From a virus, in IMG/VR virus record IMGVR_UViG_3300005096_000005, positions 1 through 64,000 of that record: 64,000 nucleotides of DNA, one strand, 5' to 3'. The position numbers and the translations under genes are program-made. Each line of letters opens with the position of its first letter. The first letter of the stretch is position 1. This document shows, piece after piece, positions 784-29,640 of the stretch. The notes below the pieces were generated by a model. The model searched no databases. It worked only from the letters and a program-made list of their open reading frames with translations, and was not told the DNA's origin.

Positions 784-858
784 GACCTGTTAGCTCAGTG
801 GGAAGAGCCGGGCGCTCTAAACGCCTGTGTGTCGGGAGTTCGAATCTCTCACAGGTCA
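784..858 (+). tRNA. Amber suppressor tRNA (anticodon CTA)
   Basis: Cloverleaf GACCTGT/ACAGGTC; D stem GCTC/GAGC; anticodon arm GGGCG-CT CTA AA-CGCCT; T loop TTCGAAT. Confidence 0.85.
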
Positions 859-919
859 CTACCAGAAGGTAATATCCTAAACAAGTGGCCCTAATAGGAG
901 AAAAACACACTTTTTTCCT

Positions 920-4506: not shown

Positions 4507-6008
4507 TTCCAGCCGAGATGGTACATGCAGGTTTGCTGTATGTTCCTGAAAGGTATGTTCTCAAAGAAGCAATTGAACGGTACACAATGAGGAACCCGGC
4601 GTTTGCTCAGGCGGTCGCCAACTCTGGAAACAAGAATCCTGACATACCAAAAACCATTCAGGCTTACAAAGAACTGAAGGGGTATATAGGATTCCCTCCA
4701 TACTCAGAACCAAAGCTTCTGGCATCGGAAGAACTGCCAATCAGAGACCTCAGATCCCACGGAGAGGACTTTGAGTTTACCTTTCGGGAAGACAAAGCGG
4801 AGCTACGTCCTGACCTGGTCTCAGAACAGAGGCTGGCTGTCAAGAAGCTTCTGAACCGTGGTCATGGTATGCTCGTGGCCAAGCCCGGCCAGGGGAAGAC
4901 AAATACTTTTATCTGGCTGATGTCCAAGATCAAAAAGAGCACGATCATCTTCGTGCATACGTCTCAACTCCAGAAGCAATGGTTTCGAAGATTCACGGAG
5001 CCTGACCCAAAGATTGGGAATGTAGCATGGACAAACGTGACAAAAGAAGATATTGCTCTGCTTGGCGACGGAAAGAAGAAGTATAGCGGACAGCCTATTA
5101 TCATAGCGACTTTGCAGATGACAGGACGGTCCATCATCCATAACAAAGAAGTTATGCACAAAGTCGGCATGGCTATTGTCGATGAGTGTCATCATCTCAG
5201 CGCGGATACGTTTCATCCATGTATGGCAGCCTGCCGTGCCTTTCATAAGTTCGGAGCAACTGCCACTCCTTATAGGACTGATAAATTAGATAAGATATTC
5301 TATGACCATCTCGGTGGCATAGCTGCAGTCATGAGGAATGTATCTCTCACCCCAACTGTGAACATCTGGCCGTTCTATACTGGCGTAGATCTGGATGATT
5401 GTACAACAAAGACAGGGAAACCATTCCTTCCTGGAATGATCAATGTCTTGTGTGCCAGTGACACATACAATGACTTTATCCTTGGGTTAGCCCTTATGCG
5501 GCTGATGGAGGGCCACAAGGTAGTAATGATAAGTCATAGAGCTGACCATTGCGTAAAGATTGCAGCCAGAGTACGACAGGAAGGATATAAAGCCAACTTC
5601 ATTGTTGCATCGTACACTGGACCTGACGATAAGCCCAAGACGCTAAGTGTTAAGAAACGTGAGGCCAGGTATGACAATCAGTTTATAGCTGCAACCCCCG
5701 GATGTATGATAGAGGGAATAGATATTCCTGATATAAGTTGCGTACAATTCGTTACTCCGTTCGGTGCCAAGAACATGGTTGAACAGGGCTGTGGCCGTGC
5801 TCAACGTCACTTCCCCGGGAAGTTGGATCCGGTAATTGACGACGTTCTGCAGGAAGACCACAGGATGCTGGTAAACCTCGGGAACAAACGCCGCCGGCAC
5901 TACGGATCATTCCACTGGCCTGTTTATTATAGAGAAGGCTCTGGATATACGGTAGATCCTGTAGCCAGAGCAATGTCTCAGCACATCACAGCAGAAGAAG
6001 AATTCTAA
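4503..6008 (+). CDS. Superfamily 2 helicase (UvsW/ResIII-like)
   Basis: PGQGKT Walker A, DECHH, ATAT, EGIDIP, QGCGRAQR. Confidence 0.9.
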   Translation: MIPAEMVHAGLLYVPERYVLKEAIERYTMRNPAFAQAVANSGNKNPDIPKTIQAYKELKGYIGFPPYSEPKLLASEELPIRDLRSHGEDFEFTFREDKAELRPDLVSEQRLAVKKLLNRGHGMLVAKPGQGKTNTFIWLMSKIKKSTIIFVHTSQLQKQWFRRFTEPDPKIGNVAWTNVTKEDIALLGDGKKKYSGQPIIIATLQMTGRSIIHNKEVMHKVGMAIVDECHHLSADTFHPCMAACRAFHKFGATATPYRTDKLDKIFYDHLGGIAAVMRNVSLTPTVNIWPFYTGVDLDDCTTKTGKPFLPGMINVLCASDTYNDFILGLALMRLMEGHKVVMISHRADHCVKIAARVRQEGYKANFIVASYTGPDDKPKTLSVKKREARYDNQFIAATPGCMIEGIDIPDISCVQFVTPFGAKNMVEQGCGRAQRHFPGKLDPVIDDVLQEDHRMLVNLGNKRRRHYGSFHWPVYYREGSGYTVDPVARAMSQHITAEEEF

Positions 6009-7862: not shown

Positions 7863-9331
7863 GTAAACGACGCTCGATTACAGAGATATGTCAGGACGGA
7901 GACATAGAAGCACTGAAACTGGTGGTTATCCATCAGCTTCAGGGAGACTTCTTCCATCTGTCTCACTTTCTTGGTGTACACTCGTTCAGATTCAGCAATG
8001 ATATCGCAACAGCCTGTATCACCAAGGATAGAGACTGCTTGCTGAACCCTGAATTCATTATTAACAACGCGAATACACCTCAGAAGCTGACTATGGTAGT
8101 GTGTCACGAAGTTTATCACAAAGTCCTTAAACATATTGAGATCCCCTCCAACTATGTAGAGGATATTGCAATGGATGCTGTCATAAACGCTATGCTGTGT
8201 CAGGTTTTTCATGGTGGACGTTACTGGGCGTTCTTCAAGGACTATTACAGTCCCGATATCTTTCCAAACTTTATCCTCCGTCCGCATAGCAAGATGTCGA
8301 CAATGTCTTTTATGGACAAAAGGTATTACAGAGTTCTTTACTATAAGAAGGATGTAAACCATATTGATGAGGTGCATCATGACCCAAATGTTACAACGAA
8401 AAGAAACTGGGGCCTAACCTATGAGGACGTAGTAGATTGGCTATCCAGAATCAGTGAAGACCAGCTCGATGAAGCCCTCAAAAAGCTCGATGAACTGGAC
8501 GAGAGTAGTGGGGTCCCTCTGCCGGGTGGCAGCATTCTTATTGGAGACCATAAAGCTGGTAAGATCACAAGAACAGAAGAAGATGACATAGACGAGTTGT
8601 CTGATATCATTAAAGAGGCAGGCGAAAAAGTCAGGACTAAGTTCGCAGGCTCTGGTGAAACGCTCTTCGATGAGATGCTGGACCTCCTTGAGGCAAAGAA
8701 AAACTCGAAGTTGGCCGAAGCATTCGACAAAGCTCTGACGCAAAGTGTAACCAGTAAGGTAACAAGCACTATCCGGTCTGCCTTTCCTGATCTGCCTGAA
8801 CGGAGTGTGGTTCCGCTTGGCATAGGCCGCAAGGAAGTAGTAATGCTCGCGGCAGGATTCCTCCCGGTGTTCTGGAAGACTGTTGTCCCGGACATCAATA
8901 GTGGGGCAGTACATGTATATATAGACGTGTCGGGTTCCATGGGAGAATGGGTTAAGTGGTGCTATGAACTATGTCTCAGCCTTGCAGACTGGTTGCATGA
9001 ACCTGTCCACTTGTTCAGTAACAAGGTAGTGGACATATCGATACAACAGCTCAGGAGAGGAAAGGTGAGTACTACGTACGGCACTGACTTCGACTGTATT
9101 TGCGAGCATATGGTCGCAAACGACGTAAAGAAGACAGTCATCATAACTGACGGATATGCATCCATGTCCGCAGAGAACCAGAACATTCTAAAACAACAGG
9201 ACAGACACCTCTTCACAGCGTTCATTCCCAATCGCTGGGGTAGAAAGGTGGGAACAGATAATGCTCATGGGATTCTGAAAGAGATATCCTATAAGTACTG
9301 GGAGCTTACTGAAGAGGACAAGATTGTTTAA
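7859..9331 (+). CDS. Metallopeptidase-like (HExxH) + vWA domain protein (DUF2201-like), MoxR partner
   Basis: HEVYH; DVSGSM MIDAS, GTDF, ITDGY. Confidence 0.8.
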   Translation: MSKRRSITEICQDGDIEALKLVVIHQLQGDFFHLSHFLGVHSFRFSNDIATACITKDRDCLLNPEFIINNANTPQKLTMVVCHEVYHKVLKHIEIPSNYVEDIAMDAVINAMLCQVFHGGRYWAFFKDYYSPDIFPNFILRPHSKMSTMSFMDKRYYRVLYYKKDVNHIDEVHHDPNVTTKRNWGLTYEDVVDWLSRISEDQLDEALKKLDELDESSGVPLPGGSILIGDHKAGKITRTEEDDIDELSDIIKEAGEKVRTKFAGSGETLFDEMLDLLEAKKNSKLAEAFDKALTQSVTSKVTSTIRSAFPDLPERSVVPLGIGRKEVVMLAAGFLPVFWKTVVPDINSGAVHVYIDVSGSMGEWVKWCYELCLSLADWLHEPVHLFSNKVVDISIQQLRRGKVSTTYGTDFDCICEHMVANDVKKTVIITDGYASMSAENQNILKQQDRHLFTAFIPNRWGRKVGTDNAHGILKEISYKYWELTEEDKIV

Positions 9332-14571: not shown

Positions 14572-14605
14572 AGGGGGTTGACAGTTGCAACCCTCTGTGT
14601 ATAAT
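14572..14605 (+). promoter_or_regulatory. sigma70-type promoter with overlapping inverted repeat
   Basis: TTGACA (14578-83), 16-nt spacer, TATAAT (14600-05); AGGGGGTTG-N7-CAACCCTCT palindrome over the -35. Confidence 0.75.
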
Positions 14606-14655
14606 AATATGCAGATAGCCGATCAGGCGTGCATAGAAAAGAGAGGTGAAGCACA

Positions 14656-14856
14656 ATGTCAGGAACAAGAATAATTGTAAGAATGGAGCGGGAAACCAAA
14701 GAGCTCACTGTGAATCTCCCAACGGACTTCACTGACGAGGGTCTCAGGGAGATCATCGCCTCGGAACTTAATTGCGACACCGGTCGGCTGCAGCCTCTTA
14801 TCATCGAGCGAACACCGAATGGTATCACTCTTCGCGAGGAGGCACCGTTCGGATAA
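14656..14856 (+). CDS. Small ubiquitin-like protein candidate (66 aa, C-terminal ...APFG)
   Basis: GAGGTG SD; beta-beta-alpha-beta-beta pattern; free C-terminal Gly; ThiF/E1 gene in same region. Confidence 0.6.
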   Translation: MSGTRIIVRMERETKELTVNLPTDFTDEGLREIIASELNCDTGRLQPLIIERTPNGITLREEAPFG

Positions 14857-14863
14857 GCATAAC

Positions 14864-14944
14864 GGGTTGGCGCAGGGCGGCGCGAGTTTTCAGGGAAACC
14901 AGGGACACCTGAAGACTATCCGGGATCACGACCCGGGCAACCCA
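14864..14944 (+). ncRNA. tRNA-like RNA with extended anticodon arm, no canonical anticodon
   Basis: GGGTTG/CAACCC terminal stem; GCGC/GCGC D-like stem; 10-bp AGTTTTCAGG/CCTGAAGACT; CCGGG-7nt-CCCGG T-like arm. Confidence 0.55.
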
Positions 14945-14950
14945 CTTTCT

Positions 14951-15103
14951 GTCGCACACACGCAGTAAGCGTACAAACATTGGAGTTAGCTCAAGTGGTT
15001 GAGCATCAGCCTATTAAGCTGAAGGTTGCTGGTTCGAGCCCAGCACCCCAAACCAGTCCCGGGGGACATAAAACACCCATCCGCTTACTACACCAGGTGC
15101 GGC
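14951..15103 (+). ncRNA. Module RNA 1: hairpin module clamped around a complete tRNA
   Basis: GTCGCAC/GTGCGGC and AGTAAGCG/CGCTTACT pair across the tRNA; ACCAG/ACAC loop; GCGTACAAAC. Confidence 0.75.
14980..15055 (+). tRNA. tRNA with anticodon ATT (nominally Asn), encoded CCA
   Basis: TTGGAGT/ACCCCAA; TCAGC-CT ATT AA-GCTGA; TTCGAGC; A73; CCA. Confidence 0.75.
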
Positions 15104-15109
15104 ACACAC

Positions 15110-15262
15110 GCCCGCGTAGCTCAGCTGGCTAGAGCACCTCATAGTTTTCTTAGCTTTGAGCACCAGGTACGGTAAATCTCCGGAGACATCGTACATACGC
15201 CCCAGGCTTACAAACTTACCCTTAGGAGGGGGCGGTCGCAGGTTCGAATCCTGTCGCGGGCA
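15110..15262 (+). ncRNA. Module RNA 2: tRNA-like, module inserted in 5' strand of anticodon stem (residual anticodon TAG)
   Basis: GCCCGCG/CGCGGGC; GCTC/GAGC; module 15143-15216; CT TAG GA GGGGG; T arm GCAGG-TTCGAAT-CCTGT. Confidence 0.8.
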
Positions 15263-15270
15263 CTTAACAT

Positions 15271-15344
15271 TGCGAGGTAGAGCAGCAGGTCAGCTCGGAT
15301 GTCTCATAAGCATCAGGTCACGGGTTCGAATCCCGTCCTCGCAA
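15271..15344 (+). tRNA. tRNA-Met (CAT), initiator-like D arm
   Basis: TGCGAGG/CCTCGCA; GAGC/GCTC; GATGT-CT CAT AA-GCATC. Confidence 0.85.
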
Positions 15345-15433
15345 TAGAAACATCGGCAGTTAAAGGGAGGAAGAAAAGACCCGGAGACTGTGAACCTTGA
15401 TAAGTATATACCAGTCCAGTAATTGCTTTTTAT

Positions 15434-15586
15434 GGGCGTACATACACTGTTGGCTTACAAACCTACGTGGGTTCGAATCCCACTGTCTCCTCCATGGTTT
15501 CGACCCGGAGACATGGCCGAGCGGCTCAAGGCACTTGAATGCGGATCAAGCAATGTTTATTACAGCCAGCTCTACCAGGTACGCCC
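15434..15586 (+). ncRNA. Module RNA 3: circularly permuted tRNA-like RNA (anticodon GCG), YrlA-like topology
   Basis: Termini GGGCGTAC/GTACGCCC; T arm + TGTCTCC-T-CCA precede GGAGACA-D arm-anticodon arm. Confidence 0.8.
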
Positions 15587-15661
15587 CTTTGATGATAATA
15601 TCCCTACCATCCCGGATTGAAACGGATGGAGCCATCGCAGACGGCATGTAGTCTGCCATAT

Positions 15662-15813
15662 GTCCTCGTAGCTCAGCTGGAAGAGCGCTTAGTTGTAGTT
15701 TTGCTTACAGCACCAGGTATGGCGAATCTCCGGAGACGTCGTATAGAAGCTGGAAGCATACAAACATTCTCAATTGGTGAGAGAGGTCGGAGGTTCGAAT
15801 CCTCCCGAGGACG
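15662..15813 (+). ncRNA. Module RNA 4: tRNA-like, module at D-arm/anticodon-arm junction
   Basis: GTCCTCG/CGAGGAC; module ~15692-15765; TTCTC-AATTGGT-GAGAG; GGAGG-TTCGAAT-CCTCC. Confidence 0.8.
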
Positions 15814-15884
15814 TTTTCGAAGTGGTGTAGGTGAACCTAACTGCACAGAAGTCCTGTGTTGACAGAAGCCGCACCACTTCACAC

Positions 15885-16018
15885 GGACGAGGTAACTTCG
15901 TAGCTTGTTACACCCGGTACACTTCGGTGTACATACGTTAGAAGCTTACAAACCTGCGGGAAGGTTCCCGCATCAGCACTTAAAGCTGAAGTTTCCGGTT
16001 CAATTCCGGCCTCGTCCA
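15885..16018 (+). ncRNA. Module RNA 5: tRNA-like, module in D-arm region, loop ACTTAAA
   Basis: GGACGAGG/CCTCGTCC; module 15902-15953; TGCGGGAA/TTCCCGCA hairpin; TCAGC/GCTGA arm; CCGG-TTCAATT-CCGG. Confidence 0.75.
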
Positions 16019-16066
16019 CTCTCGTATATGCATTAGGTCCCGAGTACGACCATAAACTACTTATAT

Positions 16067-16201
16067 GCCCAGGAGCCTCGTGGGAGGCCACTGTTTACAG
16101 CTTGGTGCCCCTGATACGGTATCCGTATACCAGCAGGAAGCTTACAAACAACCGCAGTCTTCGGACGTGCGGCACGGAAAGTTCGACTCTTTCCCTGGGC
16201 G
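16067..16201 (+). ncRNA. Module RNA 6: tRNA-like, module replaces anticodon arm, long variable arm
   Basis: GCCCAGG/CCTGGGC; GCCTC/GAGGC; module 16092-16150; CCGCA..TTCG..TGCGG; GAAAG-TTCGACT-CTTTC. Confidence 0.75.
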
Positions 16202-16321
16202 CTTCAGATACAGGACAACTTTGCTGGCATAGTTGTACACAGAAGGTTCACGAGGGAGGGCCAGCGACCTCCGTGATTAAAGTACAGGTGAAACATACTG
16301 TCGCCTGAAGTATCTGCACCT

Positions 16322-16459
16322 GGGGAGGTAGCTCAGTTTAGTTTACACGCTTGATGCGCCCGGTACAGTTTACTGTACACCAGCTTTAGGCTTACAAACA
16401 CTGGTAAGAGCAAAAGTCTTGAAAACTTTGTGTCGTTGGTTCAATTCCAACCCTCCCCA
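16322..16459 (+). ncRNA. Module RNA 7: tRNA-like, module inserted in D loop (anticodon TGA, short variable loop)
   Basis: GGGGAGG/CCTCCCC; GCTC..module 16341-16399..GAGC; AAAGT-CT TGA AA-ACTTT; GTTGG-TTCAATT-CCAAC. Confidence 0.8.
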
Positions 16460-16603
16460 CTTTGCCAACTATCTGCAATAGTAATATTGCAATGTCAACT
16501 CGCTGACATAAAATAGGAGTGTGAACCAGGTACCTGGGGATCAGTCGCAGAGTAGGGCTAAGGCGCGGCACTGCGACGCACAAGTAAAAAGTGGGCGCCA
16601 GAC

Positions 16604-16676
16604 GGGTCCTTAGTTCAGCCGGGAGAACAGCAGCTTTGCAAGCTGAAGGTCCGGGGTTCAAGTCCCCGAGGATCCA
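16604..16676 (+). tRNA. tRNA-Ala (TGC)
   Basis: Cloverleaf, anticodon TGC, G3:U70. Confidence 0.9.
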
Positions 16677-16697
16677 TTCAATCAGTTTTAGCACTAT

Positions 16698-16773
16698 GGA
16701 CTATTAGGCTCAGCGGTAGAGCGCAGGTCCCGACGGGAAGCCTAAGTCCCTGGTTCGAATCCAGGATAGTCCA
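16698..16773 (+). ncRNA. tRNA-like RNA with aberrant anticodon arm
   Basis: GGACTAT/ATAGTCC, normal D and T arms; anticodon arm AGGTCCCGACGGGAAGCCT lacks a 7-nt loop. Confidence 0.65.
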
Positions 16774-16950
16774 CTATGGAAGTACTACCGTTCGCCATTG
16801 ATGAGGAAGGAGAGCCGATTGAACCTCGCAGGAGGCCGCCCAGGTCGTGGGTTAAGCCACCAATAACCCTCCGCAGAAGGGTTCCGAAATCGCCTCATGT
16901 CCCATCAGATGAGGCGCAACGAGTCCCTGAGGTAGCAAGGAGAGTTCAAG

Positions 16951-22983: not shown

Positions 22984-23029
22984 TTACCTACTACCAGGGA
23001 CGATAGGATCGTCCAGAAAGAGGTGACAC

Positions 23030-24553
23030 ATGACAGACATGTCAAGAGAAGAAAGAGATTACAGGACACAGATGCTTAATGCAGTCCTGGTTACACCCCA
23101 CAGAGATCGCAAAGGTACCAAGAAAGACACAAGTGCTCACCAGCATACCCGTGAGACATTACTCAGTTACCACAACGAACTCCTGCAGAATGACCCCCTT
23201 TTCTATGGGAAACTCGGATACTGGTATATGCAGAATGGAAGCATTCGGGATCACATGGAAGCCTTTGTAGGCAACATGTTCCTGAGTCCGGTTCCCGAGC
23301 ATCGTGACGCAGCTCACGTGATCGTATCGAAAGGAGATCAGTTTGCTCCTTACCAAATTCCCCGGCTTATTGACTTCGTCGAGAAGGATCAGGGTCGAAA
23401 CATGCCCCGTTGCATGAAAAAGGCCATCCATCGTTGGATCGATCAACTCGAATCAGACACAGCCAGGTTTGATGGTGCCGCATTACATGCTCGCAAGCAT
23501 CTGAAGTACGTTGCCAGAAAAACACGGAGCCACCTGTCTGAAAGGTCCAGGGGTATTCTCTTCACTAAAGAATATCCTGAAGGTTCAGTGTTCGAAGCAC
23601 TGAGACGCATGTCTAATGAGGACATGGAACCGCAGGAAGTCGCAGAGACTATCGTCAAGCATAAGATTCCGCTGAGGATAGCAGGTGCGTATATGAAAGC
23701 GGTTACACCTACTGTCCTCTGCGCAGTAGTTCATAATATGTCGTCCCAGGAACTCATCAACAACGTGGGCTGGCTGCAGGATCGCGGAGCCCTGGACAAT
23801 GAAGACCTCAAAGCTCTGGTCCAGGAAAAGCTGAAGAAGGCAAGGAAAGACAAAAACGTGGCCGCCATGAAAACAAGGACGGCTATCAGTACAGGTCGTG
23901 TCCATGACGAGAGTATCATGGAACAACTCCAGGAAGTAGGAGACGAACAGCTCAAAGCCAAAGGACGCATCCGCAGAGATACACTCCTGTCAATCGACAA
24001 GTCAGGATCAATGTACAATTCAATTCGCCTGGGAGTGGAGCTCGGGTCACTTATTGCCCAGTCACTGGAAGATGGCGCAGCGCTTTATGCGTTCGCGTTC
24101 GACACAGCTCCGTACGAGCTGGGCAACCCGGGGCCAAGAATGTCTGACTGGGAGAAGGCTCTCAAGTTCATCAAAGCAGGCGGAGGGACAGCATGCGGTG
24201 CTCCCACGACAGTCCTTACCAGGAAGGATATTATGGTAGAGAACATCGTCATCATATCTGATGGTGGTGACGGTTGCTCTCCGTTCTTCGACAACGCCTA
24301 CACAGAATACGTGAACAAGACCGGAGCAAAGCCTCTTGTCACGTTCATTGCTATCGATACTGCAGGCAATATACCGGGTAGACAGACACGTCTCGGGAAT
24401 GAGATCGAAGATCTGAAGATTGAACACAGAATCATCGACTTCAAAGGAGACAAGTACAGTCTTCCAGACGTCATTACCATCCTGTCCAGGCCGTCAATGT
24501 TTGATCTCGTTATGGAGATCATGGCTATCGAGCTGCCCAAACGTGCGGCATAA
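23030..24553 (+). CDS. Ro60/TROVE-like protein (helical N-terminal domain + C-terminal vWA)
   Basis: DPLFYGKLGYWY...IRD; MSSQELINNVGWL..RG; IDKSGSM MIDAS, GGTAC, ISDG; size and architecture like Ro60. Confidence 0.75.
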   Translation: MTDMSREERDYRTQMLNAVLVTPHRDRKGTKKDTSAHQHTRETLLSYHNELLQNDPLFYGKLGYWYMQNGSIRDHMEAFVGNMFLSPVPEHRDAAHVIVSKGDQFAPYQIPRLIDFVEKDQGRNMPRCMKKAIHRWIDQLESDTARFDGAALHARKHLKYVARKTRSHLSERSRGILFTKEYPEGSVFEALRRMSNEDMEPQEVAETIVKHKIPLRIAGAYMKAVTPTVLCAVVHNMSSQELINNVGWLQDRGALDNEDLKALVQEKLKKARKDKNVAAMKTRTAISTGRVHDESIMEQLQEVGDEQLKAKGRIRRDTLLSIDKSGSMYNSIRLGVELGSLIAQSLEDGAALYAFAFDTAPYELGNPGPRMSDWEKALKFIKAGGGTACGAPTTVLTRKDIMVENIVIISDGGDGCSPFFDNAYTEYVNKTGAKPLVTFIAIDTAGNIPGRQTRLGNEIEDLKIEHRIIDFKGDKYSLPDVITILSRPSMFDLVMEIMAIELPKRAA

Positions 24554-28998: not shown

Positions 28999-29640
28999 AT
29001 GTTTAACCATGAACGAGACTATCGCGGTACCGGAGCGGAAGAACGTATCAGCCGCCAGCGTATCGTAGTGATGGGTTGTGGAGCACTGGGTTCTGGAATC
29101 GCTATAACTCTTTGCCGTATGGGGTTCAGGTTTATCGACCTTGTAGACAATGGCAGAGTAGAAGATCAGAACCTTGGCACACAACAATATGATATGCGAG
29201 ACGTAGGAGCAATGAAGGTACACGCTCTCTGGCAAAAGCTATATGATATAGTCGGCGATGGCCCGGGAGAACTCAATGTCTTTACACAGGACATTACGAA
29301 GAAGCGCCTCAAAGTATCAGACCATACGGTTATCATCATAGACTGCTTTGATAATGCCGCAGCCAGAAGTACTATCGAAGACCGTTACTCTATGAATCCG
29401 ATCATCCACGCAGGAATGGGCGATGGACTGTCCGAAGTAACCTGGCATCCGAGGTATAAAGTACCTACTGATCCGCCAGGGACAGAGACAGACCAGTGTG
29501 AGTACCCGCTGTCAGCTACCCTGGTGCAGATGACGGTAGGTATGGTATGTGAGGCTATAACTCGACGTGTTATTGAAGGAAAGGAGTATGATCTCAGGTT
29601 TACCCTGGGCGACTTTAATATCTCTGCACAACAGTATTGA
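28999..29640 (+). CDS. ThiF/MoeB/E1-family adenylyltransferase
   Basis: GCGALGS; DNGRVEDQNLGTQ; DVGAMK; IIDCFDN; DQCEYP candidate catalytic Cys. Confidence 0.88.
   Translation: MFNHERDYRGTGAEERISRQRIVVMGCGALGSGIAITLCRMGFRFIDLVDNGRVEDQNLGTQQYDMRDVGAMKVHALWQKLYDIVGDGPGELNVFTQDITKKRLKVSDHTVIIIDCFDNAAARSTIEDRYSMNPIIHAGMGDGLSEVTWHPRYKVPTDPPGTETDQCEYPLSATLVQMTVGMVCEAITRRVIEGKEYDLRFTLGDFNISAQQY

What the first reader, a model, noticed from the sequence alone, without database searches (positions are those of the whole stretch)
14951..16459. One covarying hairpin module grafted onto seven tRNA scaffolds, each at a different cloverleaf position
Seen: GC(T/G/A)TACAAAC occurs 7 times (14969, 15206, 15453, 15756, 15944, 16140, 16390). 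Each copy belongs to the same fold: a basal GTTT/AAAC stem (clear in most copies), a TAC bulge, an AGCTT/AAGCT-type stem, and a 5x4 internal loop (NCCNG opposite ATAC/ACAC/ACCA/AGAA). The apical stems change sequence but keep pairing: GTACGGT/ATCGTAC, GTACGCCC/GGGCGTAC, GTATGGCG/CGTCGTAT, GTACAC/GTGTAC, ATACGG/CCGTAT, GTACAG/CTGTAC, GTGCGGC/GTCGCAC. Attachment sites are the tRNA termini, the anticodon stem 5' strand, the variable loop (permuted), the D/anticodon junction, the D-arm region, in place of the anticodon arm, and the D loop. Inference: a constant protein-binding handle (Y-RNA-like) that presents different tRNA surfaces. Alternatively, a new small tRNA intron class removed by a dedicated enzyme.
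Basis: seen in the sequence. Interest (0 to 1): 0.92.

Follow-up and report, generated by a model that had tools for sequence, protein, structure and literature searches.

The report
Ro60-like protein's RNA handle on tRNAs
Seven tRNA-shaped RNAs of a large phage carry one conserved, co-varying hairpin that travels everywhere (phages and cyanobacteria) with a gene for a Ro60-like ring protein, so it is most likely that protein's binding handle: an undescribed relative of the Ro60/Y-RNA particle.

Summary
GCDTACAAAC occurs 7 times on one strand at 14969-16390 (0.26 expected). Covariation supports it.

The window is the start of a 170-kb phage record. The modules open a tRNA array that ends at a 507-aa gene (23030-24553) whose model matches Ro60 structures.

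Related phage contigs carry 3 to about 25 modules upstream of their homologue. In 80 bacterial loci, a model built only from phage copies gave 89 hits, 88 on the gene's strand and 85 upstream. In 121 sampled cyanobacterial genomes, module and protein occur in the same 10.

A cut-down copy sits in the leader of the protein's mRNA at the ribosome-binding site, with lineage-specific loop letters. That suggests autoregulation.

Best reading (about 0.6): a retained binding handle for the Ro60-like protein on tRNA(-like) bodies, a new Y-RNA-like class. It is not YrlA and not in Rfam. An intron or processing signal is not excluded (about 0.2). Binding, transcription and processing are untested.

This scan met the same family before on other DNA (e1-1919706).

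The parts
14578..14605 (+). Sigma-70-type promoter (TTGACA, 16 nt, TATAAT; 12 of 12) upstream of a 66-aa ORF (14656-14856) and the module array. Likely start of the transcript.
   Evidence: consensus scan only
14951..14978 (+). M1, 3' half of an 'open' module: GTCGCAC, ACAC, GCAG, T, AAGCG, TAC, AAAC.
   Evidence: pairs with 15082-15103
14980..15055 (+). M1 body: complete tRNA (anticodon loop CUAUUAA) with an encoded CCA (15053-15055), enclosed by the two module halves.
15082..15103 (+). M1, 5' half of the module: CGCTT, A, CTAC, ACCAG, GTGCGGC.
15110..15263 (+). M2 unit: tRNA body (anticodon loop CUUAGGA) with the hairpin module at 15144-15215 interrupting the 5' strand of the anticodon stem.
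   Evidence: R2 62.9 bits
15434..15462 (+). M3, 3' half of an open module.
15463..15554 (+). M3 body: circularly permuted class-II-like tRNA. Order: T arm, acceptor 3' strand, T73, CCA, a 12-nt linker, acceptor 5' strand, D arm, anticodon arm (loop AUGCGGA). The module takes the place of the variable arm.
15555..15586 (+). M3, 5' half of the module (GTTT ... ACCAG GTACGCCC).
15662..15813 (+). M4 unit: tRNA body (Rfam tRNA 42.8 bits with a 92-nt insertion) with the module at 15698-15765 in the 5' strand of the anticodon stem. Paralogue of M2.
   Evidence: 59.6 bits
15885..16018 (+). M5 unit: tRNA-like body with an 8-bp acceptor, a 6-bp D stem and a 4-bp T stem (loop ACUUAAA). The module at 15900-15953 lies between the acceptor and D stems.
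   Evidence: (70.4 bits)
16067..16201 (+). M6 unit: acceptor, D-like hairpin, module at 16093-16149 in place of the anticodon arm, UUCG-capped extra arm, T arm. It has no anticodon.
   Evidence: 61.7 bits; same design in L010:1-190 and in cyanobacteria
16322..16459 (+). M7 unit: class-I tRNA body (loop CUUGAAA) with the module at 16336-16399 in the D loop.
   Evidence: (64.4 bits)
22988..23023 (+). Mini-module in the leader of the Ro60-like gene: CTACT, ACCAG, GGACGAT, agg, ATCGTCC, AGAA, AGAGG. It has the same internal-loop letters as M2 and M4, and its outer helix contains the Shine-Dalgarno sequence 7 nt before the ATG.
   Evidence: MFE -15.6 kcal/mol, z = -3.0; homologous elements found by the model in L016 and L018
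23030..24553 (+). 507-aa Ro60-like protein (TROVE HEAT-repeat ring plus vWA domain), the proposed partner of the module.

Best explanation
The module is the binding handle of the phage's Ro60-like ring protein (23030-24553). The seven module-bearing RNAs are that protein's partner RNAs, a new class analogous to Y RNAs such as YrlA.

Proposed course of events:
1. The array is transcribed from the promoter at 14578 (inferred).
2. Host RNase P and RNase Z cut at the tRNA-shaped parts (inferred).
3. Each unit keeps a roughly 50-nt handle (P2, P3, 5x4 internal loop, P4). The handle projects from a tRNA or tRNA-like body at a site that mostly leaves the L-shape intact: the D loop, variable region, anticodon arm or termini.
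4. The protein recognises the internal loop and apical helix (inferred).
5. The tRNA part acts as a stable, correctly processed scaffold and/or as the effector end that engages tRNA-binding factors, as proposed for YrlA.
6. A minimal copy of the site in the protein's own leader encloses the Shine-Dalgarno sequence. Surplus protein would then shut off its own translation (inferred).

Shown here: the fold, its covariation, the Ro60 fold of the protein, and the genomic linkage. Not shown: binding, retention of the module in the mature RNA, and the biological role.
For: 1. The protein is Ro60-like.
- phmmer to Thermus phage phiLo Ro60 (9L5Y/9KOP) gives E 4.8e-6 over aa 45-387.
- The AlphaFold model has pLDDT 86.
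- Its 13 best PDB matches are all Ro60/Rsr chains over the full length, TM 0.58-0.66.

2. Linkage in phages.
- The closest homologue (54% identity) lies on contigs with 3 modules 3.4-4 kb upstream on the same strand.
- Homologues at about 40% identity lie on contigs with roughly 15-25 modules in the 5 kb upstream.

3. Linkage in bacteria.
- A model built only from phage copies gave 89 hits in 80 loci of the homologue. Of these, 88 are on the gene's strand and 85 are upstream.
- In three whole genomes of 7.7-9.5 Mb, every hit with E < 0.01 lies in that locus.
- In 121 sampled cyanobacterial genomes, RNA and protein are found in the same 10 and in none of the other 111. My arithmetic puts the hypergeometric chance near 1e-14.

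4. The mini-module sits at the protein's ribosome-binding site in the window and in L016 and L018, where the model finds it at E 1e-4 to 3e-4. Its loop letters match those of each lineage's own modules. A module-like motif lies within 170 nt upstream in at least 33 of 72 bacterial loci, against 0 in two controls.

5. The module can replace a whole arm. It replaces the anticodon arm in M6, L010 and cyanobacteria, and takes the place of most of the D arm in L016:8049-8167, where the D stem is the module's own basal GTTT/AAAC helix. Removing it from these units would not give a tRNA.

6. Open forms (M1, M3) have the Y-RNA topology, in which sequences on either side of the tRNA body (the RNA's ends, if it is processed there) pair to form the site. 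M3 is permuted like YrlA.

7. CCA is encoded only in M1 and M3 among about 25 tRNA(-like) genes. From established knowledge, an encoded CCA blocks RNase Z, which would keep the downstream module half attached.
Against: - No binding, expression or processing data exist, and no sequencing run could be listed.
- The module array is 6.5-8 kb from the gene, with ordinary tRNAs in between. That is farther than the 4 kb typical of YrlA.
- The most conserved letters (AGCTT/AAGCT and TACAAAC) are absent from the mini-module. They may serve another factor, or a processing step.
- In the relatives L016 and L018, most tRNA bodies with ordinary anticodon loops carry the module. If those phages need these tRNAs for decoding, the module must be removed or tolerated.
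- Deleting GTTT...AAAC from M7 restores a textbook D loop.
Confidence: 0.6

Rival explanations
1. The module is an intron-like or processing element. An endonuclease, either unknown or recruited by the Ro60-like protein, cuts at its base. Hairpin forms are then spliced out, open forms release a tRNA (M1) or circularise a permuted one (M3), and a ligase such as host RtcB joins the ends. This would be a bacterial and phage counterpart of the archaeal bulge-helix-bulge system.
For: - Insertion at many cloverleaf positions, permuted genes and flanking 'processing stems' are exactly the repertoire of archaeal BHB elements (PMC3978253, PMC4090602; listed, not read; the BHB definition used here is from my own knowledge).
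- Removing 16336-16399 gives M7 a canonical D loop.
- Removing 15895-15955 gives M5 a callable tRNA.
- M2 and M4 both regain a 5-bp anticodon stem across the insertion.
- In L016:8315-8388 and in M1, the module halves flank a complete tRNA ending in ACCA.
- In L016 and L018, few tRNA bodies are uninterrupted.
Against: - There is no 3-nt bulge / 4-bp helix / 3-nt bulge geometry.
- The junctions that would restore a tRNA lie at different distances from the conserved core (0 nt in M7, 3-4 nt in M2, 5-8 nt in M4), so no single cutting rule fits.
- No EndA and no RtcB was found in the phage record.
- In M6, L010 unit 1, the cyanobacterial units and L016:8049-8167, the module replaces an arm.
- In cyanobacteria, which have full tRNA sets elsewhere, the element occurs only beside the Ro60-like gene.
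Confidence: 0.2
2. Both hold. The handle marks precursors, and the Ro60-like ring acts as a chaperone or quality-control platform. Terminal handles (M1-type, leader and trailer) are removed by RNase P and 3' exonucleases. Internal handles stay.
For: - Ro60/Rsr is known to bind misfolded or precursor RNAs and to assist 3' exonucleolytic maturation (10.1101/312249, read).
- M. smegmatis YrlA is cut by RNase P and receives CCA.
- Acceptor-type units start with AAAC as tRNA positions 1-4, so RNase P would cut right after TAC.
Against: Purely inferential. It does not explain why internal insertions are so common.
Confidence: 0.12
3. The module is a small self-cleaving ribozyme, or a selfish mobile DNA insertion with no RNA-protein role.
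For: Its size is 50-70 nt, it has conserved internal loops, and it has many copies at varied sites.
Against: - No ribozyme family of Rfam 15 matches, even at E up to 10.
- There are no target-site duplications or terminal repeats.
- The strand is constant, G-U pairs and covariation point to RNA, and co-occurrence with one protein family is strict.
Confidence: 0.05

Closest known systems
Bacterial and phage Ro60 (Rsr) with YrlA-type Y RNAs (Chen et al. 2014, PMC4201824; Wang et al. 2018, 10.1101/312249; Rfam RF02553)
   Same: - A Ro60-fold protein gene has small RNAs nearby on the same strand.
- The RNAs are modular: a protein-binding helix plus a tRNA-like domain with D and T arms.
- A permuted tRNA topology with sequences flanking the tRNA body pairing to form the site (M3, M1).
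- Phage-borne examples exist.
   Different: - There is no GNCGAAN0-1G motif, and YrlA scores only E about 5.
- The site is a 5x4 internal loop between helices, followed by AAGCT-TACAAAC.
- It is usually a closed hairpin inserted into the tRNA rather than the terminal stem.
- It sits at up to six different cloverleaf positions.
- Many bodies keep an anticodon loop and an open acceptor end.
- There are 7 to about 25 copies per genome rather than 1-2.
- The protein is not recognised by Pfam TROVE.
Thermus phage phiLo Ro60 with Yrl1 and Yrl2 (PMC12135203; PDB 9KOP, 9L5Y)
   Same: It is the closest solved relative by sequence. The partner RNAs are encoded upstream of the phage gene.
   Different: Yrl1 and Yrl2 were identified by a CGAA motif in a large internal bulge and are not tRNA fusions. 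Identity between the proteins is about 16% in the structural alignment.
Archaeal bulge-helix-bulge tRNA introns, split and permuted tRNA genes (PMC3978253, PMC4090602)
   Same: One small RNA motif is found at many tRNA positions, flanking whole RNAs and joining permuted halves.
   Different: The BHB geometry is absent. No splicing endonuclease or RtcB was found in the phage. The hosts are bacterial. Splicing has not been shown.
Engineered 'tRNA scaffold' for expressing recombinant RNA (from my own knowledge; no paper read here)
   Same: An RNA of interest is grafted in place of the anticodon arm of a tRNA, so that cellular tRNA enzymes process and stabilise it. M6 and the cyanobacterial units have this design.
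   Different: The engineered version is artificial. Here the arrangement is natural and uses further insertion sites.

Membership tests
Ro60 / TROVE protein family (partner protein) | HEAT-repeat ring followed by a vWA domain, as in solved Ro60 structures | tested here: met
   Model pLDDT 86. The top 13 PDB matches are all Ro60/Rsr over the full length, TM 0.58-0.66, probability 1.00.
Ro60 / TROVE protein family (partner protein) | Sequence match to the Pfam TROVE model (PF05731) | tested here: not met
   No Pfam hit at E up to 10 apart from noise. phmmer to phage phiLo Ro60 gives E 4.8e-6. Some homologues carry a faint PF25045 vWA_Ro60 hit.
YrlA (Rfam RF02553) / Y RNA | Match to the YrlA covariance model | tested here: not met
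   Best score 16.5 bits against a gathering score of 69, E about 5.
YrlA (Rfam RF02553) / Y RNA | GNCGAAN0-1G (or GGUCCGA) Ro-binding motif in the 5' strand of the stem | tested here: not met
   No occurrence in 14900-16500. Motif definition from PMC4201824.
YrlA (Rfam RF02553) / Y RNA | Encoded near the Ro60 gene on the same strand (within 4 kb in Chen et al.) | tested here: inconclusive
   The strand is the same. The distance is 6.5-8 kb in the window, but 4 kb or less in L010, L016, L018 and most bacterial loci.
YrlA (Rfam RF02553) / Y RNA | tRNA-like domain with D and T arms joined to the protein-binding helix | tested here: met
   Rfam tRNA and ARAGORN matches, plus reading of all seven units.
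YrlA (Rfam RF02553) / Y RNA | Bound by Ro60 in vivo or in vitro | not testable with these tools
   There is only indirect support: co-occurrence and the leader copy.
Archaeal-type BHB tRNA intron | Two 3-nt bulges on opposite strands separated by a 4-bp helix, with the cut sites in the bulges | tested here: not met
   The base of the module is GTTT / x / P2 ... P2' / TAC / AAAC. The unpaired bases face each other rather than being offset by 4 bp.
Archaeal-type BHB tRNA intron | Splicing endonuclease (EndA) and RtcB-type ligase available | tested here: not met
   PF01974 and PF01139 gave no match in the 170-kb record, which is 78% complete. The host is unknown, and a host RtcB is possible.
Known self-cleaving ribozymes (Rfam) | Match to any ribozyme covariance model | tested here: not met
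   Only tRNA-clan and chance-level hits at E up to 10 in 14800-16900.

The most novel reading that the evidence does not exclude
The handle marks real, chargeable phage tRNAs as well as permuted and arm-swapped ones. The Ro60-like ring, with the neighbouring ubiquitin-like/E1/JAB genes, would form a protein-guided system that matures, splices or circularises them, or shields them from host tRNA-cleaving defences. That would be the first tRNA 'cut-and-join' or tRNA-guarding machinery of bacterial viruses, functionally parallel to the archaeal BHB system.
Probability: 0.15. Interest if true: 0.92.

Novelty: new variant of a known kind. Interest (0 to 1): 0.78.

Why it matters
What Ro60 and its Y RNAs do is still poorly understood. 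The only bacterial RNA partners with a defined family are YrlA and its relatives.

This report defines a second, large family. At least 432 species-representative bacterial genomes carry the protein, as do several lineages of large phages. The family has a different RNA recognition element. It co-occurs with its protein in all 121 sampled genomes. It appears to have a feedback site in the protein's own mRNA leader, and its handle is grafted onto tRNAs at many positions.

This gives three things: a functional lead for a widespread 'hypothetical vWA protein'; a natural set of tRNA-scaffolded RNAs; and cultured cyanobacteria in which Ro60/Y-RNA biology, permuted tRNAs and phage tRNA arrays can be studied together.

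Tried and rejected
- Strict module patterns in IMG/VR: no hit.
- The same pattern in metagenome contigs: one hit (L009) with no tRNA and no apical pairing, taken as chance.
- RecA-based search for related viral contigs: none.
- blastn of the region against GenBank phages: only tRNA-Met-level matches.
- Sequencing runs: none was listed, and no RNA holder was listed, so expression and junctions could not be examined.
- YrlA and all ribozyme families of Rfam: no match.
- RtcB and EndA in the phage record: none found; the record is 78% complete.
- Systematic deletion of the module with ARAGORN scoring. It was not discriminating for M2, M4 and M6, because a tRNA is called for hundreds of boundary pairs with many anticodons. 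It was informative only for M7 (always UGA) and M5 (two boundary pairs).
- Covariation in the 51 bacterial copies is weak because they are nearly invariant. Support for the fold rests on the phage copies.
- The cyanobacterial L-array paper (PMC8421152) does not describe this element.
- I first supposed that in L016 a module's two halves flank a 271-aa ORF. I dropped this: the element before the Ro60-like gene is a complete mini-hairpin, not a lone 5' half.
Full report
**What is in the window.**
The window is the first 64 kb of a 170,138-bp IMG/VR virus record estimated 78% complete. Its genes are those of a large tailed phage: DNA polymerase, helicase, ribonucleotide reductase, RecA and ThyX. 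Between about 14.9 and 23.0 kb lies a tRNA array, all on the + strand. ARAGORN finds 19 tRNAs and Rfam finds 19. The finding covers the first 1.5 kb of that array.

**The observation.**
GCDTACAAAC occurs seven times in the window, all on the + strand at the stated positions. Shuffles expect 0.26. The one further copy in the genome (72663) lies in coding sequence and lacks the fold.

Reading the sequence, every copy belongs to one architecture:
- a basal GTTT/AAAC helix P1 (absent in M1 and M5);
- unpaired bases, with TAC on the 3' side;
- a 5-bp P2 of the AGCTT/AAGCT type;
- a 5x4 internal loop (NCCNG opposite ANMM);
- an apical helix P4 of 6-8 bp with a variable loop.

Five copies are closed hairpins (M2, M4, M5, M6, M7). 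Two are 'open' (M1, M3): the 3' half lies upstream and the 5' half downstream of a tRNA body.

On an alignment of the five hairpins plus three from a related phage, 92.5% of cells pair against 73.4% in shuffles. Thirteen of 15 pairs change on both sides. The covariation score is 0.707 against 0.306 (0 of 500 shuffles), and slid controls reach 0.16 at most. Seventeen copies from two more distant phages give 90.6% against 72.1%, 12 of 15 pairs, and 0.595 against 0.233. G-U pairs occur in the stems, so the structure is selected in the RNA of the + strand.

**The attachment sites.**
- M1: the module halves flank a complete tRNA with an encoded CCA (14980-15055).
- M2 and M4: these are paralogues. 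The module interrupts the 5' strand of an anticodon stem that is complementary across the insertion (cctc|c with ggggg; ct|ctc with gagag).
- M3: a circularly permuted class-II-like tRNA. The order is T arm, acceptor 3' strand, T73, CCA, a 12-nt linker, acceptor 5' strand, D arm, anticodon arm. The module stands where the variable arm would be.
- M5: the module lies between the acceptor and D stems of a body with an 8-bp acceptor, a 6-bp D stem and a 4-bp T stem.
- M6: the module replaces the anticodon arm. This RNA has no anticodon.
- M7: the module lies in the D loop. Deleting 16336-16399 leaves a textbook D loop.

CCA is encoded only in M1 and M3 among about 25 tRNA(-like) genes of the array.

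**The partner gene.**
The array ends at a 507-aa ORF (23030-24553). It has no Pfam match. It hits phrog_850 'RNA-binding protein' and, by phmmer, the Ro60 homologue of Thermus phage phiLo (9L5Y/9KOP, E 4.8e-6 over aa 45-387; paper PMC12135203). An AlphaFold model built on 20 homologues has mean pLDDT 86. Its 13 best PDB matches are all Ro60/Rsr chains (human, Xenopus, Deinococcus, phiLo), aligned over the full length with TM 0.58-0.66. vWA domains follow far behind. It is therefore a divergent Ro60-fold protein: a TROVE ring plus a vWA domain.

**Relatives.**
The protein family is large.
- The closest homologue (54% identity) lies on groundwater phage contigs that are syntenic with the window. 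In the 4 kb upstream, on the same strand, are three modules in three of the same design types: in place of the anticodon arm, in the D loop, and at the acceptor/D junction. Their P2 and P4 sequences are changed with compensation, and the GTTT...TACAAAC ends are kept.
- Contigs of 40%-identical homologues (L016, L018) hold roughly 15-25 copies each in the 5 kb upstream of the gene. All are on its strand, with consensus AGCTT-N4-5-AACTT-GGAC...GTCC-CCTAC-N4-6-AAGCT-TACAAAC.

In L016 and L018 the commonest form is a hairpin in the D loop of otherwise ordinary tRNA bodies. Often the D stem itself is the gttt/AAAC helix. Open forms enclose one of three things:
- a whole tRNA that begins with AAAC and ends GTTT-A-CCA;
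- a permuted tRNA with its acceptor stem closed by a tetraloop;
- only 21-44 nt.

**Bacteria.**
A profile of the protein finds 432 relatives among species-representative genomes. Most are filamentous cyanobacteria, with some Chloroflexota, Planctomycetota, Armatimonadota and others. Eighty loci were kept.

The covariance model built only from phage copies gives 89 hits at E up to 1 in these 0.93 Mb. Of these, 88 are on the strand of the gene and 85 are upstream of it, in 53 of the 80 loci. The bacterial copies are again fused to tRNA-like parts. One example is a class-II tRNA-like body with the module in place of the anticodon arm, followed by a second module whose ACAUAC tail is the 5' acceptor strand of a tRNA.

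A model rebuilt from the bacterial copies was run over three whole genomes of 7.7-9.5 Mb. All hits with E < 0.01 fell in the locus of the gene. In a sample of 121 cyanobacterial genomes, the RNA (E up to 0.001) is found in 10 and the protein (E up to 1e-20) in 10. They are the same 10 genomes. In all 10 at least one RNA hit lies 0.2-3.5 kb upstream on the same contig and strand. By my arithmetic the chance of that overlap is about 1e-14. No Rfam family other than tRNA matches in the window or in six related loci.

**A copy in the protein's own leader.**
Directly before the ATG of the Ro60-like gene the window reads CTACT-ACCAG-GGACGAT-agg-ATCGTCC-AGAA-AGAGG. This has the internal-loop letters of M2 and M4 around a new P4. 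Its outer helix contains the Shine-Dalgarno sequence. RNAfold gives this structure as the minimum, -15.6 kcal/mol, z = -3.0.

In L016 and L018 the corresponding place holds AAACTT-GGACNN...NNGTCC-CC(A/C)AC, which are the loop letters of those lineages. The phage model finds both elements on its own at E 1e-4 to 3e-4.

In at least 33 of 72 bacterial loci, a module-like 5' loop plus helix lies within 170 nt of the start. Two controls gave 0. This element is often followed by CCTCC facing the AGGAGG of the gene.

A binding-site mimic at the ribosome-binding site is the classic layout of translational autoregulation by RNA-binding proteins. This is established knowledge; it is an inference here. 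I take it as the best available evidence that the protein recognises the internal loop and P4.

**Interpretation.**
Taken together, the module is most likely the handle by which this Ro60-like protein holds a family of tRNA-borne RNAs, a new class analogous to Y RNAs.

The comparison with YrlA is close in logic:
- both have a modular RNA with a tRNA-like domain;
- both include a permuted topology;
- both have the gene nearby on the same strand;
- both have phage examples.

It fails on every sequence criterion: the YrlA model scores E about 5, and there is no GNCGAAN0-1G motif. It also differs in that the handle is usually an internal hairpin, sits at several cloverleaf positions, and is present in 7 to about 25 copies.

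**Retained or removed?**
I favour retention of the module in the mature RNA for four reasons.
- In several units it replaces an arm.
- The sites used mostly leave the tRNA core free.
- CCA, an anti-determinant of RNase Z (established knowledge), is encoded exactly where the 3' end must stay joined to a module half.
- In cyanobacteria the element exists only beside the gene.

The intron or processing reading is not excluded. In L016 and L018 most tRNA bodies with normal anticodon loops carry the module, and M7, M5, M2 and M4 would become ordinary cloverleaves on excision. Against it:
- there is no bulge-helix-bulge geometry;
- the junctions needed differ from unit to unit;
- neither EndA nor RtcB is present in the phage record.

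A mixed model also remains open, in which terminal handles are trimmed and internal ones kept.

**Literature and earlier notes.**
I found no paper describing this element. The jumbo-phage survey only notes that a few phages carry a TROVE protein with a tRNA-like partner.

Earlier notes of this scan reported the same protein family with handle-bearing tRNA-like RNAs in another huge phage, cyanobacteria and planctomycetes (e1-1919706). My searches reached the same linkage independently. They add the quantified co-occurrence, the leader copy and the catalogue of attachment types.

Noticed in passing
window 14578-14856: A perfect sigma-70 consensus promoter (12 of 12) precedes a 66-aa ORF with no Pfam match, directly before the module array. 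Another first-stage note reads this ORF as a ubiquitin-like protein ending in Gly. ThiF/E1 (28999-29640) lies downstream, and JAB and ThiF genes accompany the homologues in L016 and L018.
   Followed up: partly
window 15053-15055 and 15492-15494: CCA is encoded only in the two open or permuted units (M1, M3) among about 25 tRNA(-like) genes of the array. The same holds for acceptor-type units in L016 (8386-8389) and L018 (about 7227).
   Followed up: partly
window 15174-15187, 15724-15737, 15380-15392, 15505-15515: The apical loops of M2 and M4 share the palindrome TCTCCGGAGA. CCGGAGAC also recurs twice between units. Unexplained.
   Followed up: no
L010:2112-2360: The related phage has three tRNAs of 76-78 nt with Leu anticodons (CAG, GAG, UAA) and 5-6-nt variable loops. 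They are class-I bodies where bacteria use class II. M2 (UAG) and M7 (UGA) in the window are of the same odd kind.
   Followed up: no
contig of P0019 (no DNA held), 4-7 kb downstream of its Ro60-like gene: A 917-aa product hits major vault protein families (Vault_3, MVP_shoulder) beside a ThiF gene. So a TROVE-type protein and a vault-shell-like protein are on one phage-sized contig.
   Followed up: no
L016:7463-7479 versus L018:7969-7985: These orthologous acceptor-type units have identical anticodon stems (TCACC/GGTGA) but different anticodons (UUC versus CGC). The loop is therefore free to change.
   Followed up: no
L016:4816-4870, 8187-8260; L018:8270-8345: Stand-alone modules occur with the order reversed: 3' half, 21-44 nt, then 5' half. 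The 5' halves of open forms are typically followed by a T run.
   Followed up: partly
L025, L027, L077, L092, L101 and others, 60-140 nt before position 6001: The cyanobacterial leaders of the Ro60-like gene hold a module-like 5' half and helix, followed by CUGCCUCCUC. This could pair with the AGGAGG of the gene, as an anti-Shine-Dalgarno arrangement.
   Followed up: partly
window 784-859: An amber-suppressor-type tRNA (anticodon CUA) lies far from the main array.
   Followed up: no
window 16698-16773: Rfam calls a tRNA (46.8 bits) with a 10-nt insertion in the anticodon loop. ARAGORN does not call it.
   Followed up: no
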